A stretch of DNA of 64,000 nucleotides from Acidobacteriota bacterium (GCA_040756905.1 JBFLYD010000057.1:162-64161); one strand, 5' to 3'. Positions 20,650 through 31,993 are shown, counted from the first letter of the stretch. Made by a program: numbers and translations. The notes: a model not told the origin generated them from the sequence alone.

Positions 20650-21255
20650 ATGAAAAAAGATGCTGAAAAAAATCAAAGACCTTCGAAGGATAGATATTAT
20701 TTAAATATTGCAAAAGAAGTTTCTCGAAGGTCAACATGCCTTAAAGTTTTAATCGGAGCAATAATTGTAAGGGATGACCAGATCATTGCAACCGGATATG
20801 TGGGAGCACCAAGAAAGACAAAAAGCTCTTTAGAACACGGATTCTGCCTCAGGCAGATGCTTGGTATTCCTTCAGGTGCTCAGTATGAACTATGCAGGTC
20901 TGTCCATGCAGAACAGAATGCCATAATAAATGCTGCAAGAGCAGGCGTTTCCCTTCTTAATGGAGATATGTTTATCTATGGAGAAAAAAGAGATTCCTCT
21001 ATTTCTCAATCCTTGGAAAATGAAAAAGAGGTTACAGGGAATGTAAAATTGCTGAATGCCTATCCCTGTTTTATCTGTAAAAAAATGATAATAAATTCAG
21101 GATTGAAAAGAGTCGTCTGCTCGACAGAAGATGGAAAATTCAGAATATTTTCAGTCGATAAATGGGTTAAAGAATGGCAGATAACAGATATAATAGAGGA
21201 TAAATATCAGTATGGAGAATTGCTGCATCAATTGAATAAACTTAAACAAAAATGA
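20650..21255 (+). CDS. dCMP/cytidine deaminase zinc-binding family protein
   Basis: HAEQNAI and PCFICKK zinc ligand motifs, with ~52 residues between them (longer than typical bacterial ComEB-type spacing). Confidence 0.7.
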   Translation: MKKDAEKNQRPSKDRYYLNIAKEVSRRSTCLKVLIGAIIVRDDQIIATGYVGAPRKTKSSLEHGFCLRQMLGIPSGAQYELCRSVHAEQNAIINAARAGVSLLNGDMFIYGEKRDSSISQSLENEKEVTGNVKLLNAYPCFICKKMIINSGLKRVVCSTEDGKFRIFSVDKWVKEWQITDIIEDKYQYGELLHQLNKLKQK

Positions 21256-21818
21256 AAATCGGAGTAACCGGTCCGATTGCCTCTGGAAAAGGAGAGGTTG
21301 TTAAGTTCTTCAGGAAAAATAATTTCAAATACATTTCTCTTTCAGACATGGTCAGAGAGGAAGCAAAAAAAAGAAACATTCCAGTTACAAGAGAAAACCT
21401 TCAGAACATAGGAAATAGCCTGAGAAAAGAATTTGGAGCAGGTGTTTTAGGAATGAAAGTAAGAGAGATAATTGAAAGCTTCCCTGAAAAAAACTGGATT
21501 ATCGATGGAATAAGAAACCCTGCTGAAATAGAAGAATTGAAAAAAATGAAGGGTTTCTATCTTATCGGAATTATCGCACCCCTTAACATTTTGATAGAAA
21601 GAATATTGAAAAGAGAAAGAGAAGATGACCCGAAAAAGAAAGAGGAAATTATAGAAAGAATCAGACAGGACATAGGTGTTAATGAGCCCGAAGATGGCCA
21701 GCAGGTTGGCAAATGCATTAAGATGGCAAACTTTACAATCATTAACGAAGGCTCGTTATTAGATTTACAAGAAAAATTAAAGAGAATCTATTCCACAATT
21801 TTAAAAAAATCTATTTAA
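21252..21818 (+). CDS. P-loop NMP/nucleoside-kinase-like protein with an atypical Walker A (GPIASGKGE)
   Basis: MKIGVTGPIASGKGEV P-loop, adenylate-kinase-superfamily-like size. Its ATG overlaps the deaminase TGA (ATGA), suggesting translational coupling. Exact substrate unknown. Confidence 0.4.
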   Translation: MKIGVTGPIASGKGEVVKFFRKNNFKYISLSDMVREEAKKRNIPVTRENLQNIGNSLRKEFGAGVLGMKVREIIESFPEKNWIIDGIRNPAEIEELKKMKGFYLIGIIAPLNILIERILKREREDDPKKKEEIIERIRQDIGVNEPEDGQQVGKCIKMANFTIINEGSLLDLQEKLKRIYSTILKKSI

Positions 21819-21892: not shown

Positions 21893-22435
21893 TCATTTTC
21901 TCGTGCCATATTGAATATTAAACCAATATATGAACAAATCTTTCTCTAAATTTCTGTAGTTATTAAACCTTTTGGAGACTATTTTCCAAAAATTTTCGTT
22001 ATGTCTTTTTTCTATTAAATGGGTAATTTCGTGAAAGATTACATACTTTATCAAATACTTGGGCAACTTTTGCATCAGTATATTTATAGTCAGATTTCTC
22101 TTGGGACTCAAGCTTGCCCATTTTGTTTTCATATTTCTGAAATAGATATTATTCAATCCAATACTTAATTCTTTGGAGATTTTTTTAACAAATTTCTCAA
22201 TGAGAGTCCTGAATTCCTTTTCACTTCTCTCAATCAATCTTTTATTTGAAGAAAGATTTAAACATTCCCTTATAAATTCATTCTTTTTAAAAATCCAATT
22301 CTTGTGCTTTTCAAGAATAATATCAGGTTTTAATCTCACAGGCAGTACTAAAAGAAGCTCACCTGTTGTAAATTCTAACCTTGGATATTTTATATTCCTG
22401 TAAGAAGTTTTATATCTTATGTTATGCATTTCCAT
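21893..22435 (-). CDS. DUF45 / WLM / SprT-like zinc metallopeptidase (often annotated M48-family) associated with type I R-M loci
   Basis: HEITHLIEKRH HExxH motif near the C-terminus. Start overlaps the hsdR stop. Confidence 0.65.
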   Translation of the reverse strand: MEMHNIRYKTSYRNIKYPRLEFTTGELLLVLPVRLKPDIILEKHKNWIFKKNEFIRECLNLSSNKRLIERSEKEFRTLIEKFVKKISKELSIGLNNIYFRNMKTKWASLSPKRNLTINILMQKLPKYLIKYVIFHEITHLIEKRHNENFWKIVSKRFNNYRNLEKDLFIYWFNIQYGTRK

Positions 22436-25427
22436 AATTTTTCACACTTTCAATGAGTTTCCCATATAGAGTATTCATTTCATCTAAAGAGAGAGCATGC
22501 TTGCTTTTAAGCCTCCTAACAAATCTTCTTATCTCACGCTCTACTTCCTTTCTTGCAGTAGCTTGATTAAACCAGCCTAAAAACATACGCTCTTGAAGAT
22601 TTTGTGAGAGTTCCATCACTTCTTTTGTAAGCTGTTCTCCATTTTCCAGTTTCTGCTCAAGTTGAAGGAGCATTGCATATTCAAGATTGGAAAATCCTAA
22701 AGACTTTTGTCTCTCTGTAAGAGTATTGATATCCTTAAGTATTCTTACACCTTCAGTATAAATCTTTGCGTAATCTCTAGTCTTTTCTTTCCAGAGCTCA
22801 AGAAGCCTTTCGACTTTTTCAATCAATGACTCATAGATGGGATTTCTGTGTCTTTCTACAAGAACTAACTTGTTAAGGGTAAAGAGGATATTCGCTGCTT
22901 TCTCCTCTTTTCCTTTAATTTTCTCTTCTAGCTTCTCGAGATACTCTTTATCAAAAGCTATAGTTGGAAGTTCTCGCTCAAGTGTATCTATTTCAGTAGC
23001 CCTATGAACAAATCTTATAGTTTTATCGTAGTATTTTTGAATATAGCCTTCATAAACAGATTTTTGGATGACTACTTTCATGTAATATGCGTAAATTGCA
23101 GAGAGCCATTTATAGGAATCAAAATGTTCCAATTTGATCTCATTGGGCCCAAGAAGTTCGAAAGTTTTACTTAATTTTCTGTACTTTTCAAGAAATTCTT
23201 TCCCTTTCTCTTCATCTAAAGTAAGAACTTCTATAGTTTTCAATAAGGTTTCCCTTTTGTAATCAATCGATACTTCTTTAAGAATTTCCAAAATCTCTCT
23301 AATAAGAGTTACAAATTCCTCTATAACATTGTCCTGACTAAAGAGAGCACCTTTGATATCTTCTTCGCTGTACATTTCAAGGGCTCTCTTAAATTCTTTT
23401 AAAATACCCACATAATCAATTACAATTCCAGACTCTTTTAAATCATTAAAAGGTCTGTTTGTTCTTGCTATTGCTTGAAGAAGCCTGTGTTCCTTGAGGA
23501 GCTTATCAAGATACATTACCTGGAGAGAAGGGCAGTCAAAACCAGCAAGCAGCATTTCAGTAACAATCAATATGCTGGGTAAGGGTTCTTCTTTGAATTT
23601 TTCGATAATTTCTTTTCTGATATCCCCTATATCTTTGCCTCCGTATTGTGCCCTGAGTTCAGCGACTGCGTTCTTTAATAACAGTTCATCTTCTCTATCA
23701 AACGTTATGACTACTTTGCTATACTCTTCAGGCAAATGTTTATTCAATTCCAGTCTGTAAAGTTCACATGCCTTTCTGCTTCCAGCTACCACCATAGCCT
23801 TAAACTTTCCATCAATATTCTCTTTGAAATGTTGAGCTATATCTTCGGCAATTACTTTAATCCTATTGGGATTTTCAAGAAAGAGTTTTATGGCATTAAG
23901 TCTTTTCTTTATCCCTTCCTCAACATCTTCGCGGATCTCCTCTGGAAGTTCCTCAAGTTCTGTTTCCAAAAATGCTTCCAGCATCTCCTTTTTTAAATGG
24001 ACCTCTTTTTCAAGTCTTGGCTGATAGACGATTTTCACTGTAAAACCGTCTTTGATAGAATCCGTTATGAAATATCTGTCAAGATAAGGTTCTTCTGTCG
24101 GATAGCTGAATTCTAAATAGGTGTCTCTTCCTCTCTTTGAAATGGGAGTGCCTGTGAGGGCAAAAAAGAAGGCGTTCTTGAGTATTGATTTCATCTGAGC
24201 TGCAAGAGTTCCATATTGAGTCCTATGCCCTTCATCTATAAAGGCAATGACATTCTTCCTGTTCATTATTGTTTCTTTGTGTTTTGATATTTCCTCTAAT
24301 TCTTTCTCTACCTCTTTGAGTTCTTCATATCTGAATTTATGAATAAGCACTATAAAAACTCCTCTCTTGCCTCTGTAGTCCTCATGTTTGAGGATTTCTT
24401 TGAGTTCCCACACTGAACTAATAATTTCAGGTTTTACAATATCTAGAGAGTTGAATTCACTATAAAGCTGATCTTCCAGCTCAATCCTGTCAACAATGAA
24501 AAATATTGTGGGATTTTCAAGCTCTTTCATGTAGTAAAGCTTATGAGCTGCAAATATCATGGTAAGGGTTTTTCCGCTTCCCTGCCAGTGCCAGATAAGT
24601 CCTCTATTCTTTTCCTCTTGACCCGTGAGATTCGCCATGACTCTATTAACGATTTTATTGGCAGCGCTGTATTGCATATATCTGGTTATCGCCTTAGAGG
24701 CATTTCCAAATTCTATCCTGAAAAAGAGGAAATGTTTGAGTATATCGAGTAAAGATTTTCTTGATAGAATTTCGATGACAGAGTCAATGGAATCTTTTCC
24801 TTCCTCTTTCCATTCGTGCGTTTTCACTTCATCCTGCCACGGAACAATAGGAAAATACTTAGCCCTACTTTCTGCAGCTACTCCAATTTGGACATACTTA
24901 TAAAGCTCTGGAACGATTTTTTCGTAATCTTTTACCTGTTTATAAGCGTTGTACCAGCTTTCGGATATACTTGCAGGGTTCTTACATTCTATATTTACAA
25001 GAGGGATGCCGTTAACATAGAGCATAAGATCTATCCGAATTCTTTCTCTGCCGTCATAATTGATCTGCGTTGTTACAATGAACTCATTATTCTCGATGTC
25101 CTTGAAATCGAATAATTGAATGTACTTTACCACTCTCTCTTTTTCAAACTTCACAGGAATGCCAAATTTATAGAAATTCAAAATTTTCTTTGCTCCTTCA
25201 ATGCCTGAGCTTGTTAAAGTTAGTTCATTCAGAGCTTTATTTATCTCTTCATCGCCGATGTTAGCTTCTTTGTTTATTCTTTTTAATGCTCTTACGAGAT
25301 TCGGCACAAGGAGAGGCTCTTTATAGTTTTCTCTCATAAGATTATCAGATGGAACAAATTCCCACTCCTTTTCTATAAGTCTGCGGAGGAGATACTCTTC
25401 TACAATAGATTTTTCAGTAAATTTCAT
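22422..25427 (-). CDS. hsdR: Type I restriction enzyme R subunit (SF2 helicase plus endonuclease)
   Basis: 1001 aa. WQGSGKTLTM Walker A, DEGHR-type DEAH box (IDEGHRTQ), N-terminal nuclease region. Operon with hsdS and hsdM. Confidence 0.9.
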   Translation of the reverse strand: MKFTEKSIVEEYLLRRLIEKEWEFVPSDNLMRENYKEPLLVPNLVRALKRINKEANIGDEEINKALNELTLTSSGIEGAKKILNFYKFGIPVKFEKERVVKYIQLFDFKDIENNEFIVTTQINYDGRERIRIDLMLYVNGIPLVNIECKNPASISESWYNAYKQVKDYEKIVPELYKYVQIGVAAESRAKYFPIVPWQDEVKTHEWKEEGKDSIDSVIEILSRKSLLDILKHFLFFRIEFGNASKAITRYMQYSAANKIVNRVMANLTGQEEKNRGLIWHWQGSGKTLTMIFAAHKLYYMKELENPTIFFIVDRIELEDQLYSEFNSLDIVKPEIISSVWELKEILKHEDYRGKRGVFIVLIHKFRYEELKEVEKELEEISKHKETIMNRKNVIAFIDEGHRTQYGTLAAQMKSILKNAFFFALTGTPISKRGRDTYLEFSYPTEEPYLDRYFITDSIKDGFTVKIVYQPRLEKEVHLKKEMLEAFLETELEELPEEIREDVEEGIKKRLNAIKLFLENPNRIKVIAEDIAQHFKENIDGKFKAMVVAGSRKACELYRLELNKHLPEEYSKVVITFDREDELLLKNAVAELRAQYGGKDIGDIRKEIIEKFKEEPLPSILIVTEMLLAGFDCPSLQVMYLDKLLKEHRLLQAIARTNRPFNDLKESGIVIDYVGILKEFKRALEMYSEEDIKGALFSQDNVIEEFVTLIREILEILKEVSIDYKRETLLKTIEVLTLDEEKGKEFLEKYRKLSKTFELLGPNEIKLEHFDSYKWLSAIYAYYMKVVIQKSVYEGYIQKYYDKTIRFVHRATEIDTLERELPTIAFDKEYLEKLEEKIKGKEEKAANILFTLNKLVLVERHRNPIYESLIEKVERLLELWKEKTRDYAKIYTEGVRILKDINTLTERQKSLGFSNLEYAMLLQLEQKLENGEQLTKEVMELSQNLQERMFLGWFNQATARKEVEREIRRFVRRLKSKHALSLDEMNTLYGKLIESVKNYGNA

Positions 25428-25428
25428 C

Positions 25429-26559
25429 TCAGGTTTCCAATTTCACTCTCTTTCTCCCTGTCAGTAAATCATTCATCAATCCCTTCTTAATTCTCTCAAA
25501 CTTTCCCTTTTTCTCTTTCAGCATCTCCAGCCTTCTATCCCCTGTGCTCAGGATTTCAGCGATTTTTTTCTGTTCAGGGAGAGGAGGAAGAGGGAGTTTC
25601 AGCACATGTACCAATTCTCTTTTAAGTCCAGGGACTACATCAGCCAAACTTAGTTTTGGCAAATTTAAATGATTTAATACAAAAAATAACCACTTCAATT
25701 CAATATCTTTTATTAAGGTATTTATATAATAAGTTGTATCTATAGGCCAAAAATCTGAGTTTATCCAAGAGACAGCTCCTATTGTCCCCTTTCTGCCTAT
25801 AACTATACCTGGCCCCTTAACTAAAGCTTCTTCATGGTATCCCACTATTCCATTAGAACCTACCACTGGATACATTCCAGCTTTTCTTTCTCTTTCAGAT
25901 AATCCTTTGCCATACTCTAACGTTAGTATTTTCCCCAACCTCACCACCTCCCACTCCTTCGGTATCCTTCCAATCTCTGTTTCTTTAAACTCTTTATAAC
26001 CTATGCCCTTGGTCAGTAGCTCATGCATCAACCCCTTTTTTAGCCTTTCGGTCTTCTCAATAGTTTCATCTACCTTCTCAATAGCCTCATCAACCGTTGA
26101 AAGAATCTTAGCAATTTTTTTCTGTTCAGGGAGAGGAGGAAGAGGGAGTTTCAGCACATGTACCAATTCTCTTTTAAGTCCAGGGACTACATCAGCCAAA
26201 CTTAGTTTTGGCAAATTTAAATGATTTAATACAAAAAATAACCACTTCAATTCAATATCTTTTATTAAGGTATTTATATAATAAGTTGTATCTATAGGCC
26301 AAAAATCTGAGTTTATCCAAGAGACAGCTCCTATTGTCCCCTTTCTGCCTATAACTATACCTGGCCCCTTAACTAAAGCTTCTTCATGGTATCCCACTAT
26401 TCCATTAGAACCTACCACTGGATACATTCCAGCTTTTCTTTCTCTTTCAGATAATCCTTTGCCATACTCTAACGTTAATATTTTCCCCAACCTCACCACC
26501 TCCCACTCCTTCGGTATCTCGCCAATTTCGGTTTGTTTAAATTTCTTTTGTTTAGTCAT
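25429..26559 (-). CDS. hsdS: Type I R-M specificity subunit with two nearly identical target recognition domains
   Basis: Two ~150-aa TRDs of identical sequence (EIG(E/R)IPKEWEVVRLGKILTLEYGKGLSERE...PLPEQKKIA) separated by the conserved central coiled-coil region. Typical HsdS size. Confidence 0.85.
   Translation of the reverse strand: MTKQKKFKQTEIGEIPKEWEVVRLGKILTLEYGKGLSERERKAGMYPVVGSNGIVGYHEEALVKGPGIVIGRKGTIGAVSWINSDFWPIDTTYYINTLIKDIELKWLFFVLNHLNLPKLSLADVVPGLKRELVHVLKLPLPPLPEQKKIAKILSTVDEAIEKVDETIEKTERLKKGLMHELLTKGIGYKEFKETEIGRIPKEWEVVRLGKILTLEYGKGLSERERKAGMYPVVGSNGIVGYHEEALVKGPGIVIGRKGTIGAVSWINSDFWPIDTTYYINTLIKDIELKWLFFVLNHLNLPKLSLADVVPGLKRELVHVLKLPLPPLPEQKKIAEILSTGDRRLEMLKEKKGKFERIKKGLMNDLLTGRKRVKLET
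25563..25985. repeat. Direct repeat copy 1 inside hsdS (TRD-encoding, ~423 bp, near-identical to 26114-26536)
   Basis: Read directly: the sequence from tttttttctgttcagggagaggagg to ccactccttcggtatc recurs with a ~552-nt period and only a few substitutions. Confidence 0.85.
26114..26536. repeat. Direct repeat copy 2 inside hsdS
   Basis: See copy 1. Confidence 0.85.
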
Positions 26560-27551
26560 TTCTTAAATTCCAATATGTCAAAAATACTCAATTGTCCTGC
26601 ATTTGAAATTTCAATTTTTCTGGTTGTAATATTCTCAAATTCCCATCCAGTATTTGGGATAAGCGCTTTAGAAATAGTAAATGCTCTATAATGACTACTA
26701 TTCTTAAATCCACTGCCCCGCTTTCGTTTATCAAGCATCTCTTTTACAGGATATGCAATAATTCCTTTTTTATCTTCTATTGGGTTACCGATCTGAGGAT
26801 TTATATTCTTGATTTTTGCATCTTTAAGGCAGCAATGAATCGCACAACCAAGTAACATATCCGCCAACTGAAGCATATTGGCGTGCTTGTATTCTTCCGA
26901 TCCTTCATTATAATTCCTATGATTAGAATTCAAATGTACTAACTCTGCATCCTTGGGAATTTGCACATATTCCCGAACTTCTCCTGTAAGTCTATCCAGT
27001 ATTCTAAACTCGTTTAATCTTCGATGATGTGGCTGACCATCAGTAATAATTTTTAAGATTTTCACTTTGTGACTATTGTCATAAAGGTAATGAACCGTTC
27101 CCTTTAATAACATTCTAAGCAATGTTTCTCCAAACCTTAATTCTCTTTCATTCCTATCTTTACCACCATAACTTGCAATTTGATCTGGCCTTGGCTTTTC
27201 ATGAAAAATTATACCTAACTTGCAAAAAGTTTTATTCTGCTTTAAATACTTTACACCTATTTGAACTATCTGTTTATCGGCATTATTTCGCTTTGCCCAT
27301 TTCCGTCCAGATATCTCTGAAAAATGGAATTTATGATCTACGCCAAAATCACTTCTTATCTTCTTAATTTCCTCAAATAGAATATTTAAGGGTTCAACTT
27401 GTCTTATCTGTGTGTCAAATAAATCACCTGTCTCTTCAATAATTGTTTTAATCGGTACAAAAAGCAAAGCATGTCCCTTTGATATTTCTGTACCAGCGCT
27501 TTTTGTTTCATCATGATATACTATTACTTCACTTTCAATACTTCTTCTCAT
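26556..27551 (-). CDS. Hypothetical 331-aa protein embedded between hsdM and hsdS, tentatively DUF3800-like
   Basis: N-terminal VIVYHDETKS (acidic motif on a predicted first strand) and C-terminal ANMLQLADMLLG resemble what I recall of DUF3800. Not verifiable here. Overlaps the hsdS start by 4 nt. Confidence 0.3.
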   Translation of the reverse strand: MRRSIESEVIVYHDETKSAGTEISKGHALLFVPIKTIIEETGDLFDTQIRQVEPLNILFEEIKKIRSDFGVDHKFHFSEISGRKWAKRNNADKQIVQIGVKYLKQNKTFCKLGIIFHEKPRPDQIASYGGKDRNERELRFGETLLRMLLKGTVHYLYDNSHKVKILKIITDGQPHHRRLNEFRILDRLTGEVREYVQIPKDAELVHLNSNHRNYNEGSEEYKHANMLQLADMLLGCAIHCCLKDAKIKNINPQIGNPIEDKKGIIAYPVKEMLDKRKRGSGFKNSSHYRAFTISKALIPNTGWEFENITTRKIEISNAGQLSIFDILEFKK

Positions 27552-27576
27552 TTTTCTATTTTGCCTCTCACCACAT

Positions 27577-27870
27577 TTATTTCTTCCCCCCTGCTCTCTT
27601 TATAATATTTCCTTTTTCATCCATGACCCCTATCCCGTTTCCCTTGGTACCATCTAAAGCATTCTGTAGATTCCTTTCGTTTACAGCAATATACCTTGCT
27701 TTTGAGGATCTTTTTACCTGATTTATTCCTTGATATATTCCACTTTTCGTGGTCTCAACTTCAATCACTCTATTGTCTGTAACTATATCAATCCCCTTTT
27801 GCTTTCTATATTCTGTTCCAAACCTTTTTGCCAACTTTTCCCCAATTTGATCGTGTTTATTTTTAGCCAT
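27577..27870 (-). CDS. Small 97-aa hypothetical protein, possible minimal PD-(D/E)xK (Hjc/VRR-NUC-like) fold
   Basis: GIDIVTDNRVIEVETTK resembles a D...E-x-K nuclease core. Weak, by eye only. Confidence 0.2.
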   Translation of the reverse strand: MAKNKHDQIGEKLAKRFGTEYRKQKGIDIVTDNRVIEVETTKSGIYQGINQVKRSSKARYIAVNERNLQNALDGTKGNGIGVMDEKGNIIKRAGGKK

Positions 27871-27967
27871 TATTTAACCTCCTCAAATTAATAATCATCA
27901 ACTTAATCATCAACCTTATCTAAGTTAATAGCCGAGGCTTCTACATTTCCAAGCGGTTTCGTCTCTC

Positions 27968-28504
27968 TCACTCCCTTCCGAACCCGATCATCTTTCTCGG
28001 CTTTTGAGGTGGAGTCATGAGTTGGCGAATGGCATCGAAAATAGCCTTTATCTTTTCCTCTTGCCTTTCTATTTTTCTTTCAAGCTCCGTTAACTTGTGA
28101 GCAAGTTCTTTGTGTGCTGAAAGGATTTCTCTAAGCCTTATAAAGGCCCGCATGATGGCTATATTCACATGAATGGCTCTTTCGCTATGCAATACACTGG
28201 AAAGCATGGCAACACCTTGTTCAGTAAAGGCATAAGGGCGGGCACGTCTTGCTCCTCCCCAACTTGAAATCACAATTTGTGACTTCAAGATTTTATACTC
28301 TTGTTCATTAAGCTGGAACATAAAATCTTCAGGGAATCTCTCGATATTGCGTTTTACTGCCTGGATAAGCACACGAACTTCAACCTCATAGAGTTCCGCA
28401 AGGTGTGTGCTAAGCATAATTTTCTTCCCTCGGATAAAACAAATTTTTCTCTCAATCTGTTCTATTGGAACAATTGCTTGATTAAGCATTTCCAGTTCCA
28501 TCAT
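27968..28504 (-). CDS. ORF6N-domain (KilA-N-like) DNA-binding protein, a common type I R-M passenger
   Basis: N-terminal [45 protein letters not shown] is typical of ORF6N proteins. C-terminal coiled coil. Confidence 0.55.
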
Positions 28505-28686
28505 CCTTGACTTTTTACATAATCTTTAATTTTTTTTATATTTTCTGCCGTCGTAGTTGCCTGCCAATTAACCTTTTTGCATCAAAATATAATAAATTTA
28601 TGCCTCTTAGAAAATGACAACTTAAATGACAACCATTGTCAAACCAGCTCATAATAAGCTCCTCTGTACTTTTCTTTGAACTTTCA

Positions 28687-30231
28687 TCATCTATCTCTTT
28701 CCCCTTTCTTTATTGCAATATATTTTTGAAATCTACTTTTTGGTTTATCCGGAATCGTTCTTTTTAAATAGTCCTTTTCCAATAGAGGATTGAGGATTTT
28801 CTCTATAAAGTGTTTTCTGTCTCTTAAGTTTAGGTGCACCATGATTTCTTTCAGGGATCTCGGAGTTTGGCAATAACTTAGAGTCAGAGCAATTCTATCC
28901 ATTATTTCGACTTGTGGGGTGACTTGTGGGGTGACTTGTGGGGTGACTTGTTCGGTTGGATGACGCAGTGTGAAGGTAAAAGTATCAGATTTTATATCAT
29001 TTGAATAATCTGGAATTGGATATCCTTCTTTTTTCAGGAGCTCAACGGTAGTTCTAATGCCTGTTCCTTTTGTTTCTGCCCATCCGATATCATAAAAAAC
29101 AGCGGCTATTAGAGGGTTGCGCAATTCAGATCCAGGAGAACTAAAGAGAGAAGGATCTTTTAGAGAGTAGCCAGGGTTATAAAATTCCACTCTATCATTA
29201 TAGACTCTTATCTGAGCAGGGCTTGGGTGAAAATAGTTTTGATGCATTAAAAGATTAGTGAGGGCTTCTCTTAAAGCCTTTCTATGGGCATGCTCTTCTG
29301 TGCGAATGAGCTTCTCATCCAATTTAAATGGAATCAAGAAGAAACGATCAAGGATGTCGAGAGCAGAAGACCAGAGAGTTACGAGATTTCCTGTCAAATC
29401 CTGTGAGAGAAAGGGATTCTTTTCTTTTCCCCATTCTGACCCTTTTATCCTGATTATATCCAGGCGCTTTGCTGGAAAATATCGTTTTACAATTCCTTCC
29501 TTACCAAAAAGAAGGATGCCAGCTACGATTAAAGTCCTGCCATCTTGTGCCAGCAGATTGTACGCTTTCAATAATTCGGCATTGTCAAATGTGAGTTCCG
29601 GAGCATCAGGTTTTATGAGCTTACGCAGATTTCTGAAGACAGAAATAGCCTTGATATCAATATCTTCTAATGTAGTACCAATAACAGATTGTGCATCAGG
29701 AGCTCCCATTCGCTCTTGATAATATCTCTGGACATCAGAATCTGTTAATCTTATGTCGGTAGCTCCTATTCGTTTAAAACCTCCTTTAATTGGGCCTAAG
29801 TCTTTTATGTAGATTGGCTTTTGATATCTCGGTGCTTCTTTTACTTCAATCAAAATTATCGGCATACCTTTATCCTCTGTTATCCCCGCTCTTACAACAG
29901 GACAATAATTAAATTTCTGCCCAATGGTGGAGGTAAAGTCATCCAATATCTTTGAAGGATTCTCTACGCCCACAGGGATGTAGTTATTGTCTGCCTTCTC
30001 ATACCCAAGAAGTATCATTCCACCGCCTTCATTTGAAAAAGCTGAAACGGTCTCCCATAAATCCTTAGAAAGTTTCGATTTGCAAAGTTTATACTCAATC
30101 TTTGAACTTTCCCATCTGCTCCTCTCTTCCATTATCTTCATTTTTTGTGGTTCTCCGTTCTCTATCAATTTGACTCTTTTTTCAGCTCCAGACTCAATAG
30201 AATCTTGATTCTCAGATTTTTTCTTCATCAT
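28687..30231 (-). CDS. COG2865-type protein: Schlafen-like AlbA_2 domain plus HATPase_c_4-like domain plus C-terminal wHTH
   Basis: LWETVSAFSNEGGGMILLGYE (AlbA_2 / divergent AAA region). Central ALREALTNLLMHQNY. C-terminal HTH-like tail. A (VTPQ)x3 tandem repeat lies in the linker. Confidence 0.65.
   Translation of the reverse strand: MMKKKSENQDSIESGAEKRVKLIENGEPQKMKIMEERSRWESSKIEYKLCKSKLSKDLWETVSAFSNEGGGMILLGYEKADNNYIPVGVENPSKILDDFTSTIGQKFNYCPVVRAGITEDKGMPIILIEVKEAPRYQKPIYIKDLGPIKGGFKRIGATDIRLTDSDVQRYYQERMGAPDAQSVIGTTLEDIDIKAISVFRNLRKLIKPDAPELTFDNAELLKAYNLLAQDGRTLIVAGILLFGKEGIVKRYFPAKRLDIIRIKGSEWGKEKNPFLSQDLTGNLVTLWSSALDILDRFFLIPFKLDEKLIRTEEHAHRKALREALTNLLMHQNYFHPSPAQIRVYNDRVEFYNPGYSLKDPSLFSSPGSELRNPLIAAVFYDIGWAETKGTGIRTTVELLKKEGYPIPDYSNDIKSDTFTFTLRHPTEQVTPQVTPQVTPQVEIMDRIALTLSYCQTPRSLKEIMVHLNLRDRKHFIEKILNPLLEKDYLKRTIPDKPKSRFQKYIAIKKGERDR
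28909..28950. repeat. 12-nt tandem repeat (GACTTGTGGGGT x3.5) encoding the VTPQVTPQVTPQV linker
   Basis: Read directly from the sequence. Confidence 0.85.
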
Positions 30232-31993
30232 TAGATACCTTTAGTTCCTTAAGATAATTCTCTATCTTTTCGCTTACTTCTGTTAGCTCCTTTTCAAGTA
30301 TGCGAAGCTCTTCCCACTCTTTTGCCGCATCAATCTCCTCTGTCTCTTCCTCAGGAAAAACATACAGCGTAACATTCAGGTTATAGTCATTTTCTTTTAT
30401 CTTTTCATGCTCTACAATCCTTGCAAATCCATCTATATCCTTAAACTCTCTGTATGCAATAACAATTTTATTTATGTGCTCATCTCCTAATCTGTTGAGT
30501 TTTCTGACCTCTGGATGTTGTTCATATTCTCTGCTTGCATTTATAAATAAAATCTTGTCTTTCCTTTCCTCTGGTTTATTCTTATTGAGAATGAGGATGG
30601 CTCCTGGTGCACCTGTATTGTAGAAAAGTTTTTCAGGGAGGAGAATGACTGCTTCCATCAGGTTTTCGCTAATAATAGCTGTTCTCACCGCTTTTTCTTT
30701 TCCACCCCTAAAGAGACAACCATTATCTATGACAATACCTACTCTACCTTTTTCGGTGTTTGCAGAGGATAGCATGTGTTGAATCCAAGCCCAGTCTGCG
30801 GATTGATTTGGAGAGAATCCGTACTTAAATCTTTCTCTCCAGAACTCACCCTTTTTCAAAATATCCTCACCATAGCCATCTTGATTCCATGGGGGATTGG
30901 CTATGACGACATCGAACGTTTTGGCACGTTCAGCATCTTTAAATTTGGGATAAAGCAGAGTATCGCCAAGCACAAGTTGGGCATTCCTTATATCATGGAT
31001 GTAAAGATTCATCTTCGCTAAGGCGAGAGTCTTGTGATTGGCTTCCTGTCCGGACAAGAAAAGTTTTTCAGCCTCACTTTTTCCCTTTTCATTTTCAATA
31101 TGTTGATAGGAGGCTATTAACATGCCTCCTGAACCACAAGCAGGATCATAAACACTTTCTTTTGGCTGGGGATCAAGAATTTCTACGAGGAGTTTTATAA
31201 CCTCTCTTGGCGTGTAAACTTCTCCTTCTTTTGCCTTTTGGGGAGCGAAATATTTTAAAATCCATTCGTAGGCATCACCAAGTATGTCAGGAGAGACATG
31301 ATGAAGTGGCTTTGCGCTGAAGAGCTCGACAAGTTGCCTTAATATCTCTACATTCTCTCTGTTTGTGGTGAACTGGACAAAATCAACATTCTCAAAGACA
31401 TCTTTTAACTCAGGATTTTTCTCTGAGAGAAGCTTCATTGCCTTGGAAAAGTTTTCTGGTAATCGCGCAGGTTCTTTTCTTATGTTTTCCCAAAGAAGTT
31501 CATCCGAAATATCGAAATCATGATATATGGAGTTTTTTGCCTCTACTTTTGCCTCTTCCTCACTAAGACCATCTGCAAGGGCTTCCTTATAGGCCGCCTC
31601 GTATTCTATTTCCCATTTGTCGCTTATCCTTTTATAGAAAAGAAGGAAAAGTATAAATGTATAATCGACCCTTGTTCTGATAAGATCCGCAGCTTTTTTT
31701 AGTAGATTATCAAGATCGTCTCTTGTTAGAGTATCATTCCTTATCGTAAATAATTCCGATAATATTTTTTCTCGGCTTATCAATGTGTAGATACGCTTTC
31801 TTGCATCTTTAGGGTCAAGTTCAACTTTGAGCCAATCTCTTTTTCGTAACTCTGAAAGAATAACATTGACCTGCTCCTCTGAGTCCTGCAACTTCTCCTT
31901 GAGAATCTTTTCTGCTTCTTCAAAACGGAATAAAGAATCCTTGAAGGCTTCCACGAGCATCCCATATCTTTTTTCGAGCCATTTAGGTATCAT
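30212..31993 (-). CDS. hsdM: Type I R-M N6-adenine DNA methyltransferase subunit
   Basis: DPACGSGGML SAM motif, VVIANPPWN catalytic motif, N-terminal HsdM_N-like region. Confidence 0.9.
   Translation of the reverse strand: MIPKWLEKRYGMLVEAFKDSLFRFEEAEKILKEKLQDSEEQVNVILSELRKRDWLKVELDPKDARKRIYTLISREKILSELFTIRNDTLTRDDLDNLLKKAADLIRTRVDYTFILFLLFYKRISDKWEIEYEAAYKEALADGLSEEEAKVEAKNSIYHDFDISDELLWENIRKEPARLPENFSKAMKLLSEKNPELKDVFENVDFVQFTTNRENVEILRQLVELFSAKPLHHVSPDILGDAYEWILKYFAPQKAKEGEVYTPREVIKLLVEILDPQPKESVYDPACGSGGMLIASYQHIENEKGKSEAEKLFLSGQEANHKTLALAKMNLYIHDIRNAQLVLGDTLLYPKFKDAERAKTFDVVIANPPWNQDGYGEDILKKGEFWRERFKYGFSPNQSADWAWIQHMLSSANTEKGRVGIVIDNGCLFRGGKEKAVRTAIISENLMEAVILLPEKLFYNTGAPGAILILNKNKPEERKDKILFINASREYEQHPEVRKLNRLGDEHINKIVIAYREFKDIDGFARIVEHEKIKENDYNLNVTLYVFPEEETEEIDAAKEWEELRILEKELTEVSEKIENYLKELKVSNDEEKI

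What the first reader, a model, noticed from the sequence alone, without database searches (positions are those of the whole stretch)
25429..26559. hsdS built from two essentially identical TRDs (~552-bp-period near-perfect direct repeat)
The ~423-bp blocks at 25563-25985 and 26114-26536 are almost identical at the nucleotide level. They encode TRD1 and TRD2 with the same sequence. Normal HsdS subunits carry two different TRDs, one for each half of a bipartite asymmetric site. Identical TRDs imply a symmetric recognition sequence and a very recent duplication or gene conversion. The repeat is also a substrate for RecA-mediated deletion to a half-size HsdS, a possible on/off or specificity switch.
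Basis: seen in the sequence. Interest (0 to 1): 0.6.

Follow-up and report, generated by a model that had tools for sequence, protein, structure and literature searches.

The report
Type I hsdS with twin TRDs
A restriction-enzyme specificity gene has had one of its two DNA-reading domains overwritten by a copy of the other, so the enzyme should read a symmetric DNA site; this is a clean natural case of a process already described in other bacteria, not a new kind of system.

Summary
Window 25562-25966 and 26114-26518 are 405 bp with one synonymous mismatch, period 552. They lie inside an intact 376-aa hsdS (25429-26559, minus strand) of a complete Type I restriction-modification operon. Residues 15-150 equal residues 199-334.

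Only the TRDs are alike. The two helical spacers (CR1, CR2) share 61% of residues, and each resembles the same-position spacer of homologues more than the other-position one. So an old TRD1-CR1-TRD2-CR2 gene had one TRD recently overwritten by the other, through the conserved sequences flanking each TRD. This is the "domain movement" (DoMo) route described in Helicobacter pylori.

It recurs. The same TRD type sits at position 1 in many homologues and at position 2 in others. Seven or eight other hsdS genes, including those beside hsdR orthologues, have TRD pairs 64-95% identical.

A palindromic bipartite target is inferred from engineered TRD duplications (PacII, BsaXI) and from half-size S dimers. 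It was not measured here.

The "deletion switch" idea is weak. The in-frame 192-aa product should dimerise and read the same or a similar palindrome, and the deletion is irreversible. No variant was found.

Verdict: new member of a known kind, of modest interest.

The parts
25429..26559 (-). hsdS, 376 aa: leader, TRD1, CR1 helix, TRD2, CR2 helix
   Evidence: ORF. Pfam Methylase_S, E 3.5e-45, two stretches. PADLOC Specificity_I, E 4e-90. AF2 model pLDDT 93.7 with helices 143-184 and 327-367. Foldseek best hit 1yf2_A, TMq 0.75.
26114..26518 (-). Repeat copy encoding TRD1 with its conserved flanks (aa 15-148)
   Evidence: 404/405 identical to 25562-25966.
25562..25966 (-). Repeat copy encoding TRD2 with its conserved flanks (aa 199-332)
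   Evidence: The only mismatch, at 25926, is synonymous.
25990..26113 (-). Central conserved region CR1 (helix aa 143-184) plus the linker to TRD2. Unique sequence, not part of the repeat. Contains the family-wide heptad pair VDEAIEK/VDETIEK (21-nt tandem at 26053-26095).
   Evidence: CR1 is 80% identical to the CR1 of homologues and 55% to their CR2.
25432..25561 (-). C-terminal conserved region CR2 (helix aa 327-367) and tail
   Evidence: CR2 is 69% identical to the CR2 of homologues and 56% to their CR1. CR1 versus CR2 within this gene is 61%.
30212..31993 (-). hsdM (593 aa, catalytic motif NPPW). First gene of the operon, with a promoter-like site at 32072-32044.
   Evidence: Pfam N6_Mtase E 8.6e-115 and HsdM_N. 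TIGR00497 hit below its curated cut-off (223.2 vs 242.75 bits). Motif. Promoter scan, 11/12 match.
22422..25427 (-). hsdR (1001 aa). Its start lies one base after the hsdS stop.
   Evidence: Pfam HSDR_N, SWI2_SNF2, ResIII, T1R_D3-like. TIGR00348 E 8e-201.
21893..22435 (-). YgjP-like metallopeptidase gene overlapping the hsdR end. The same gene follows hsdR in related locus L002.
26556..30231 (-). Four cargo genes inserted between hsdM and hsdS: 514 aa AlbA_2/HATPase_c_4, 178 aa ORF6N (PDC-S05), 97 aa, and 331 aa. The stop of the 331-aa gene overlaps the hsdS ATG.

Best explanation
This is an intact, operon-embedded Type I specificity gene (hsdS). One target recognition domain has very recently been replaced by a copy of the other through intragenic (or sister-copy) homologous recombination. 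The recombination ran through the conserved sequences that flank each TRD. Upstream, this is the segment encoding F-K-x-T-E-I-G-x-I-P-K-E-W-E-V-V. Downstream, it is the segment encoding P-L-P-P-L-P-E-Q-K-K-I-A-x-I-L-S-T. The layout is the x-(TRD1)-y-x-(TRD2)-y organisation of 'domain movement' (DoMo).

The two TRDs sit in opposite orientation on an antiparallel coiled coil of two equal-length spacer helices. The resulting M2S (and R2M2S) enzyme should therefore read an interrupted palindrome: half-site, N spacer, reverse-complement half-site. It should methylate the symmetric adenines.

Shown here: the repeat, its limits, the intact gene and operon, the diverged position-specific spacers, the high-confidence HsdS fold, and recurrence in relatives.

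Inferred: the palindromic specificity, the recombination mechanism, and the activity of the system.
For: - **Repeat:** 404/405 nt identical with a sharp fall to ~50% in the spacers. Residues 15-150 equal residues 199-334.
- **Old scaffold:** CR1 and CR2 are 61% identical to each other. CR1 is 80% identical to the CR1 of homologues versus 55% to their CR2. CR2 is 69% versus 56%.
- **Mobile TRD type:** it occurs at position 1 in many homologues and at position 2 in many others, at 57-78% identity. The nearest outside relative is 78%, against 100% between the two copies, so the copies coalesced long after the type diverged.
- **Independent parallel case:** L001/P0002 has TRD copies 93% identical in nt (95% aa) with the same boundaries. 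Its TRD type differs (63% to the window's). That same 63% is shown by the position-1 TRDs of P0048, P0049 and P0063 and the position-2 TRD of P0054. One search gave distance 0.0 to P0048 and P0054, but that figure was not re-checked.
- **Flanking repeats in a relative:** the hsdS of L006, with unlike TRDs, has flanking direct repeats of 45 nt (78%) and 52 nt (83%).
- **Fold:** AF2 pLDDT 93.7 with spacer helices of 42 and 41 residues. Foldseek 1yf2_A TMq 0.75, PacII S 0.70, EcoR124I S 0.68.
- **Operon:** complete hsdM, hsdS, hsdR.
- **Precedent for a palindromic site:** PacII TRD1 duplication gives CCC-N5-GGG (PMC5100572). BsaXI 2xTRD1 gives AC-N5-GT (bioRxiv 10.1101/2022.03.14.484276). Half-S dimers read palindromes (PMC3874165, PMC6158711, PMC12418389).
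- **Precedent for the mechanism:** DoMo model and an allele with the same TRD at both positions (PMC3077401). A TRD keeps its half-site at either position (PMC3983042).
Against: - No methylome, no reads and no conspecific alleles were available. The nearest hsdS in 5.8 billion proteins is 67% identical, so donor, recipient and timing cannot be traced.
- The contig is from a metagenome-assembled genome. A 405-bp near-exact repeat is the kind of structure that short-read assemblers can mis-resolve.
- Morgan et al. (PMC5100572) report that some engineered same-TRD constructs (all-m6A versions of PacII and DbaKI) were inactive. Activity of a twin-TRD S subunit is therefore not guaranteed.
Confidence: 0.8

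Rival explanations
1. Assembly artefact. The true gene carries two different TRDs, or only one. The metagenome assembler threaded the same TRD sequence twice, or built a chimera of two strains' alleles.
For: The source is a MAG contig (NCBI 'MAG: Acidobacteriota bacterium', 66,187 bp). The repeat is longer than typical k-mers and reads. The exact protein is not on record on any other contig.
Against: - The unique CR1 segment (25990-26113) is joined to a TRD end on one side and a TRD start on the other. Two passes through the TRD are therefore needed to place it.
- The two copies differ at one base and in graded fashion at both edges.
- The product is in frame and folds as a canonical HsdS.
- An independent relative, assembled elsewhere, has the same architecture with copies 93% identical in nt. 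That cannot be a collapse artefact.
Confidence: 0.1
2. The identical direct repeats act as a programmed switch. RecA-mediated deletion to a half-size hsdS turns the system off or changes its specificity in part of the population.
For: - 405 bp of direct identity 147 bp apart is a good recombination substrate.
- The deletion is in frame and gives a 192-aa TRD+CR2 protein.
- Single-TRD alleles formed this way are described in H. pylori and Mycoplasma (PMC3077401).
- A complete 219-aa single-TRD HsdS of the same TRD family exists (P0232/L050).
Against: - The deletion is one-way, so it is not a reversible switch.
- The product keeps the same TRD. By precedent it homodimerises to read the same or a closely similar palindrome, at most with a one-base spacer change as in CC398-1 half-S (PMC6158711).
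- There is no second hsdS and no spare TRD in the 64 kb. hsdS has no inverted repeat, the locus has no simple-sequence tract, and the genes scanned at the locus include no recombinase.
- No half-size variant with this TRD at high identity was found in the databases.
Confidence: 0.07
3. Ancient symmetric HsdS. The gene arose by tandem duplication of a half gene (TRD+CR), and its TRDs are kept identical by continuing concerted evolution under selection for a palindromic target.
For: A graded series of TRD-pair identities occurs in relatives: 95, 78, 73, 70, 67 and 64% aa. Repeated homogenisation would look like this.
Against: - The spacers show position-specific orthology with homologues whose TRDs differ, so the two-position scaffold predates the twin state.
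- Each twin pair belongs to a different TRD type. Those types have closer relatives in non-twin genes, which points to independent events followed by divergence rather than a conserved symmetric lineage.
Confidence: 0.03

Closest known systems
Domain movement (DoMo) of TRDs in Type I / Type IIG S genes of Helicobacter pylori, Streptococcus pyogenes and Mycoplasma agalactiae (Furuta et al. 2011, PMC3077401; 2014, PMC3983042)
   Same: - The x-(TRD1)-y-x-(TRD2)-y layout with short conserved repeats flanking each TRD.
- The same TRD type found at either position.
- One described allele (HPV225_1544, a Type IIG S gene) with the same TRD at both positions.
- Single-TRD deletion forms.
   Different: - This case is in an uncultured, low-GC (35%) organism labelled Acidobacteriota, in a different HsdS sequence family (nearest structure M. 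jannaschii 1YF2).
- No conspecific alleles are available, so movement is inferred from within-gene identity rather than from allele comparison.
- The twin state is caught almost at time zero (1 difference in 405 nt).
Engineered TRD duplications: PacII-mut1 (TRD1-CR1-TRD1-CR2, CCC-N5-GGG; Morgan et al. 2016, PMC5100572) and BsaXI 2xTRD1 (AC-N5-GT; bioRxiv 10.1101/2022.03.14.484276)
   Same: - Same architecture: one TRD at both positions on the native pair of spacer helices.
- The S subunits share the PLPPL junction motif.
- PacII S is a structural match to the model (7vru_C, TMq 0.70).
   Different: - Those are laboratory constructs. This one is natural.
- PacII uses two different methyltransferases (m4C/m6A). 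Only one hsdM (motif NPPW) is in this operon.
Homodimeric half-size S subunits: EcoR124I(delta50), EcoDXXI truncations, natural NgoAV, CC398-1 half-S, lactococcal truncated S (PMC3874165, PMC6158711, PMC12418389)
   Same: Two copies of one TRD in the enzyme, so the bipartite target is palindromic. This gene's predicted recombination product (192 aa) would be of this kind.
   Different: Here both TRD copies are in one full-length polypeptide with two distinct spacer helices. The stoichiometry and spacer geometry are fixed as in ordinary HsdS.
Phase-variable Type I systems with hsdS shuffling (e.g. SpnD39III-type inverting loci)
   Same: Specificity change by recombination between repeats inside hsdS genes.
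   Different: In the window there is no second or silent hsdS, hsdS has no inverted repeat, and the genes scanned at the locus include no recombinase. The repeats are direct, so the outcome is conversion or deletion, not reversible inversion.

Membership tests
Type I R-M specificity subunit (HsdS, Pfam PF01420 Methylase_S) | Two TRDs of the Methylase_S type | tested here: met
   PF01420, E 3.5e-45, 154.6 bits (cut-off 22), two stretches. PADLOC Specificity_I, E 4e-90.
Type I R-M specificity subunit (HsdS, Pfam PF01420 Methylase_S) | Two long helical conserved regions (central and C-terminal) able to form the antiparallel coiled coil | tested here: met
   AF2 pLDDT 93.7, pTM 0.82, helices 143-184 and 327-367; 1yf2_A E 9e-28, TMq 0.75. 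Also 1ydx, 2y7c_A, 7vru_C and 7bst_A.
Type I R-M specificity subunit (HsdS, Pfam PF01420 Methylase_S) | Encoded with hsdM and hsdR | tested here: met
   hsdM 30212-31993 and hsdR 22422-25427 on the same strand. The hsdS stop lies one base before the hsdR start.
Type I R-M specificity subunit (HsdS, Pfam PF01420 Methylase_S) | Directs sequence-specific methylation and restriction of a bipartite site | not testable with these tools
   Needs a methylome or biochemistry.
DoMo-type TRD movement (Furuta et al. 2011) | x-(TRD1)-y-x-(TRD2)-y: short direct repeats flanking both TRDs | tested here: met
   graded identity in the flanks encoding EIGxIPKEWEVV and PLPPLPEQKKIAxILST; relative L006, with unlike TRDs, has 45-nt (78%) and 52-nt (83%) flanking repeats.
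DoMo-type TRD movement (Furuta et al. 2011) | One TRD homology group found at both positions among related genes | tested here: met
   the window's TRD type is at position 1 in e.g. P0007, P0016 and P0032 (77-78%) and at position 2 in e.g. P0011, P0023 and P0046 (73-75%).
DoMo-type TRD movement (Furuta et al. 2011) | Movement between alleles of the same locus within a species | not testable with these tools
   No conspecific allele was found. The nearest hsdS is 67% identical, and the hsdR orthologues are at most 75% identical.
DoMo-type TRD movement (Furuta et al. 2011) | Predictable change of recognition sequence | not testable with these tools
   Needs a methylome.
Phase-variable (shuffling) Type I hsdS locus | Additional or silent hsdS copies, inverted repeats and a site-specific recombinase; or a simple-sequence tract in hsdS or hsdM | tested here: not met
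   no other hsdS or TRD copy in 64 kb; no inverted repeat involving hsdS; no mono- to penta-nucleotide tract; no recombinase among the operon genes and the six flanking ORFs that were scanned.
Half-size homodimeric HsdS (NgoAV-like) | Single TRD plus a single dimerisation helix in the polypeptide | tested here: not met
   The gene encodes two TRDs and two helices. Only its hypothetical 552-bp deletion product (192 aa) would qualify.

The most novel reading that the evidence does not exclude
This Type I family, found in Aminicenantes-like and other sediment or subsurface microbes, may routinely make new specificities by a two-step cycle. First, TRD homogenisation creates a palindromic-site enzyme. 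Then the two copies diverge into a new asymmetric pair, or the gene collapses to a half-size S. The window would hold the youngest stage of a series seen at 100, 95, 78, 73, 70, 67 and 64% TRD-pair identity. If so, twin-TRD genes are the birth stage of new TRD2 or TRD1 lineages rather than dead ends. The rate of this cycle could then be measured from metagenomes.
Probability: 0.25. Interest if true: 0.45.

Novelty: new member of a known kind. Interest (0 to 1): 0.3.

Why it matters
This is a natural, nearly time-zero example of a TRD copied onto the other position of a full-length HsdS. It gives a clean test case, because one half-site is predicted to be read twice. A single methylome would therefore reveal the TRD's half-site and the spacer set by this family's 41-42-residue helices. 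It extends the DoMo mechanism from a few cultured pathogens to uncultured environmental lineages. It also suggests that same-type TRD pairs are not rare in this family: about 1 in 7-9 of the hsdS genes beside hsdR orthologues. It does not reveal a new mechanism or a new class of system.

Tried and rejected
- **Other hsdS copies.** I looked for a third TRD copy, a second hsdS or a silent cassette in the window with tblastn and blastn. None was found, so a shufflon reading was dropped.
- **Other repeats.** I looked for inverted repeats and simple-sequence tracts. None was relevant. The 21-nt tandem in CR1 is a family-wide heptad pair (VDxAIEKVDExIxK in the consensus), and CR1 and CR2 have equal length. 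It is not a spacer-length polymorphism.
- **Conspecific alleles and deletion variants.** The protein search, the exact-protein look-up (not on record), and hsdR-based scans of genomes and metagenomes found nothing closer than 67% (HsdS) or 75% (HsdR).
- **Half-size relatives.** The representative search gave two candidates. P0149 (198 aa) begins inside CR1, so it is a fragment or the C-terminal half of a split gene. P0232 (219 aa) is complete on its contig, but the contig is only 788 bp. It is only a lead.
- **Half-gene tandem duplication.** Rejected because the spacers are diverged and position-specific.
- **Predicting the half-site.** I did not attempt this. No characterised TRD close enough was available in the tools.
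- **Literature.** Searches for a natural full-length Type I HsdS with identical TRDs found DoMo, engineered duplications and truncated S subunits. The only same-TRD-at-both-positions allele found was the H. pylori Type IIG S gene.

Full report

Yes. At an offset of 552 bp, window 25562-25966 and 26114-26518 agree at 404 of 405 positions. The repeat finder reports the core as two 300-nt copies at 99% with spacing 552.

The single difference (25926 G, 26478 A) is a synonymous Leu codon. Outside the 405-bp core, identity decays over about 20-25 bp on each side. It then drops to 12-15 matches per 30 nt, about 50%. No third copy exists in the 64 kb.

Its 423-bp block includes about 20 bp of the already diverging N-terminal flank.

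**2. What is it?**

The repeat lies in an intact 376-aa ORF on the minus strand (25429-26559). The ORF has two Pfam Methylase_S stretches (E 3.5e-45) and strong PADLOC Specificity_I matches. Residues 15-150 are identical to residues 199-334.

An AlphaFold2 model built on 58 homologues is confident (pLDDT 93.7, pTM 0.82). It shows the canonical order: TRD, long helix (143-184), TRD, long helix (327-367). Its best solved-structure matches are HsdS proteins:

| Structure | Protein | TMq |
|---|---|---|
| 1yf2_A | M. jannaschii S subunit | 0.75 |
| 7vru_C | PacII S | 0.70 |
| 7bst_A | EcoR124I S | 0.68 |

The gene sits in a complete same-strand Type I operon:
- A promoter-like site at 32072-32044.
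- hsdM (30212-31993, motif NPPW).
- Four inserted cargo genes (26556-30231).
- hsdS.
- hsdR (22422-25427, starting one base after the hsdS stop).
- A YgjP-like peptidase gene.

The protein is recorded once, as 'MAG: restriction endonuclease subunit S [Acidobacteriota bacterium]', on a 66,187-bp contig. The window has 35% GC.

**3. Which event made the repeat?**

Only the TRDs and their short conserved flanks are alike. The two spacer regions share 61% of residues. Each is closer to the same-position spacer of homologues than to the other-position spacer:

| Spacer | Identity to homologues' CR1 | Identity to homologues' CR2 |
|---|---|---|
| CR1 | 80% | 55% |
| CR2 | 56% | 69% |

So the TRD1-CR1-TRD2-CR2 scaffold is old, and one TRD has been overwritten by the other. 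A tandem duplication of a half gene is excluded, because it would have made the spacers as similar as the TRDs.

The limits of identity fall in the conserved segments that flank every TRD in this family. On one side is the segment encoding FKxTEIGxIPKEWEVV. On the other is the segment encoding PLPPLPEQKKIAxILST. A related Aminicenantes hsdS with unlike TRDs (L006) carries these flanks as direct repeats of 45 nt (78%) and 52 nt (83%).

This is the x-(TRD1)-y-x-(TRD2)-y layout. Furuta et al. proposed that recombination at such repeats moves TRDs between positions, deletes one, or adds a third (DoMo; PMC3077401).

**4. Is it a one-off?**

No.

- **The TRD type occupies both positions.** In the protein database the window's TRD type (57-78% identity) is at position 1 in many HsdS and at position 2 in many others.
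- **Other same-type pairs among the best hits.** Among the 120 best hits, four others have TRD pairs of the same type. P0002/L001 is 95% identical in aa and 93% in nt, with the same boundaries as here. P0004/L002 is 73% aa; P0021 and P0022 are 64-70%.
- **An independent sample.** Loci were chosen only by similarity of hsdR (48-75% identity). Of about 27 full-length adjacent hsdS genes, four have clearly related TRD pairs (three distinct sequences, since L027 and L028 are identical): L035 at 78%, L037 at 67%, and L027/L028 at 64%. The background is about 20-35%.
- **The events look independent.** The twin pairs belong to different TRD types, and each type has closer relatives in non-twin genes.

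The window is the youngest member of a graded series.

**5. How it most likely works**

In HsdS the two TRDs are related by a pseudo-twofold axis, and each reads one half-site. A TRD moved to the other position reads the reverse complement of its half-site (shown by methylomes in H. pylori, PMC3983042).

Experimental precedent agrees:
- Replacing TRD2 with a copy of TRD1 in PacII S gave the palindrome CCC-N5-GGG (PMC5100572).
- The same operation in BsaXI S gave AC-N5-GT.
- Half-size S subunits that dimerise also read interrupted palindromes (PMC3874165, PMC6158711, PMC12418389).

With identical TRDs and spacer helices of 42 and 41 residues, this enzyme is expected to recognise and methylate an interrupted palindrome. 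That step is an inference. Neither the half-site nor the spacer length could be predicted here. Some engineered same-TRD constructs were inactive.

**6. The deletion-switch idea**

Recombination between the two copies would remove 552 bp in frame. It would leave a 192-aa TRD+CR2 protein. Such single-TRD alleles are known (PMC3077401). A complete 219-aa single-TRD HsdS of the same TRD family exists on a short contig (P0232/L050).

Three points count against a switch:
- The product keeps the same TRD, so it should read the same or a very similar palindrome.
- The deletion cannot be reversed.
- The window has none of the hallmarks of phase-variable hsdS loci.

I rate this as possible background instability, not a switch.

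**7. Artefact?**

This cannot be excluded without reads, but it is unlikely.
- The unique CR1 is joined to a TRD end on one side and a TRD start on the other.
- The copies differ at one base and, gradually, at both edges.
- The gene is in frame and folds well.
- An independently assembled relative shows the same architecture at 93% nt identity, which a collapse cannot produce.

**8. Comparison and novelty**

The closest known phenomenon is DoMo. It already includes one allele with the same TRD at both positions, in a Type IIG S gene. The closest functional analogues are the engineered PacII and BsaXI TRD duplications and the half-size S dimers.

The 2013 review (PMC3874165) knew only NgoAV, a truncated S, as a natural palindromic Type I system. 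Palindromic Type I-like motifs have since been seen (e.g. RGAN7TCY in H. pylori F32, PMC3983042).

I file this as a new member of a known kind. It is a natural twin-TRD, full-length HsdS in an uncultured lineage, caught almost immediately after conversion. Interest is modest (0.3). It is a tidy test case and hints at a duplicate-then-diverge cycle, but it shows no new mechanism.

Noticed in passing
window 26556-30231 (- strand): Four genes are inserted between hsdM and hsdS. The first is a 514-aa AlbA_2/HATPase_c_4/Fic-like_C protein. The second is a 178-aa ORF6N protein matching the PADLOC candidate defence family PDC-S05 (E 4e-57). The third is a 97-aa ORF with no match. The fourth is a 331-aa ORF with only a sub-threshold DUF3800 hit, and its stop overlaps the hsdS start. 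Related hsdM..hsdS..hsdR loci hold different cargo in the same slot: L002 has Fic plus an 808-aa SMC_N/AAA protein, and L001 has SIR2_2. The slot looks like a variable defence-gene insertion site.
   Followed up: partly
window 28909-28951: A perfect 12-nt tandem repeat (GACTTGTGGGGT, 3.6 copies, 100% matches) lies inside the 514-aa AlbA_2/HATPase_c_4 gene. It is in frame (4-aa unit), so copy-number change would alter a linker, not the reading frame.
   Followed up: no
window 20650-21818 (+ strand): Next to the RM operon, a dCMP/cytidine deaminase-domain gene (201 aa) overlaps a P-loop AAA_17/adenylate-kinase-like gene (188 aa). From memory, this resembles a split form of anti-phage dCTP deaminases. 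Not tested.
   Followed up: no
L047 1182-2398: Upstream of an hsdR orthologue, the hsdS is split into two overlapping half-size ORFs: 203 aa (TRD1 plus part of CR1) and 202 aa (TRD2 plus CR2). This is either a frameshifted gene or a natural two-polypeptide S subunit.
   Followed up: no
L050 67-726 (protein P0232): A complete 219-aa single-TRD HsdS whose TRD is 55% identical to the window's. Its single spacer starts CR1-like and ends CR2-like. The contig is only 788 bp, so it could be a true half-size S or a collapsed assembly of a twin-TRD gene.
   Followed up: partly
window 26053-26095: A 21-nt tandem (86% identical) in CR1 encodes the heptad pair VDEAIEK/VDETIEK. The pair is conserved across the family, and CR1 and CR2 have equal length. 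It is therefore not a recent spacer-length change like the TAEL repeats of EcoR124I/II.
   Followed up: yes
L035 1338-2615; L037 1802-3124; L027/L028 2740-3999: hsdS genes beside hsdR orthologues (59-65% identical to the window's HsdR) carry TRD pairs 64-78% identical to each other. Their TRD types differ from the window's. They look like older instances of the same kind of event.
   Followed up: partly
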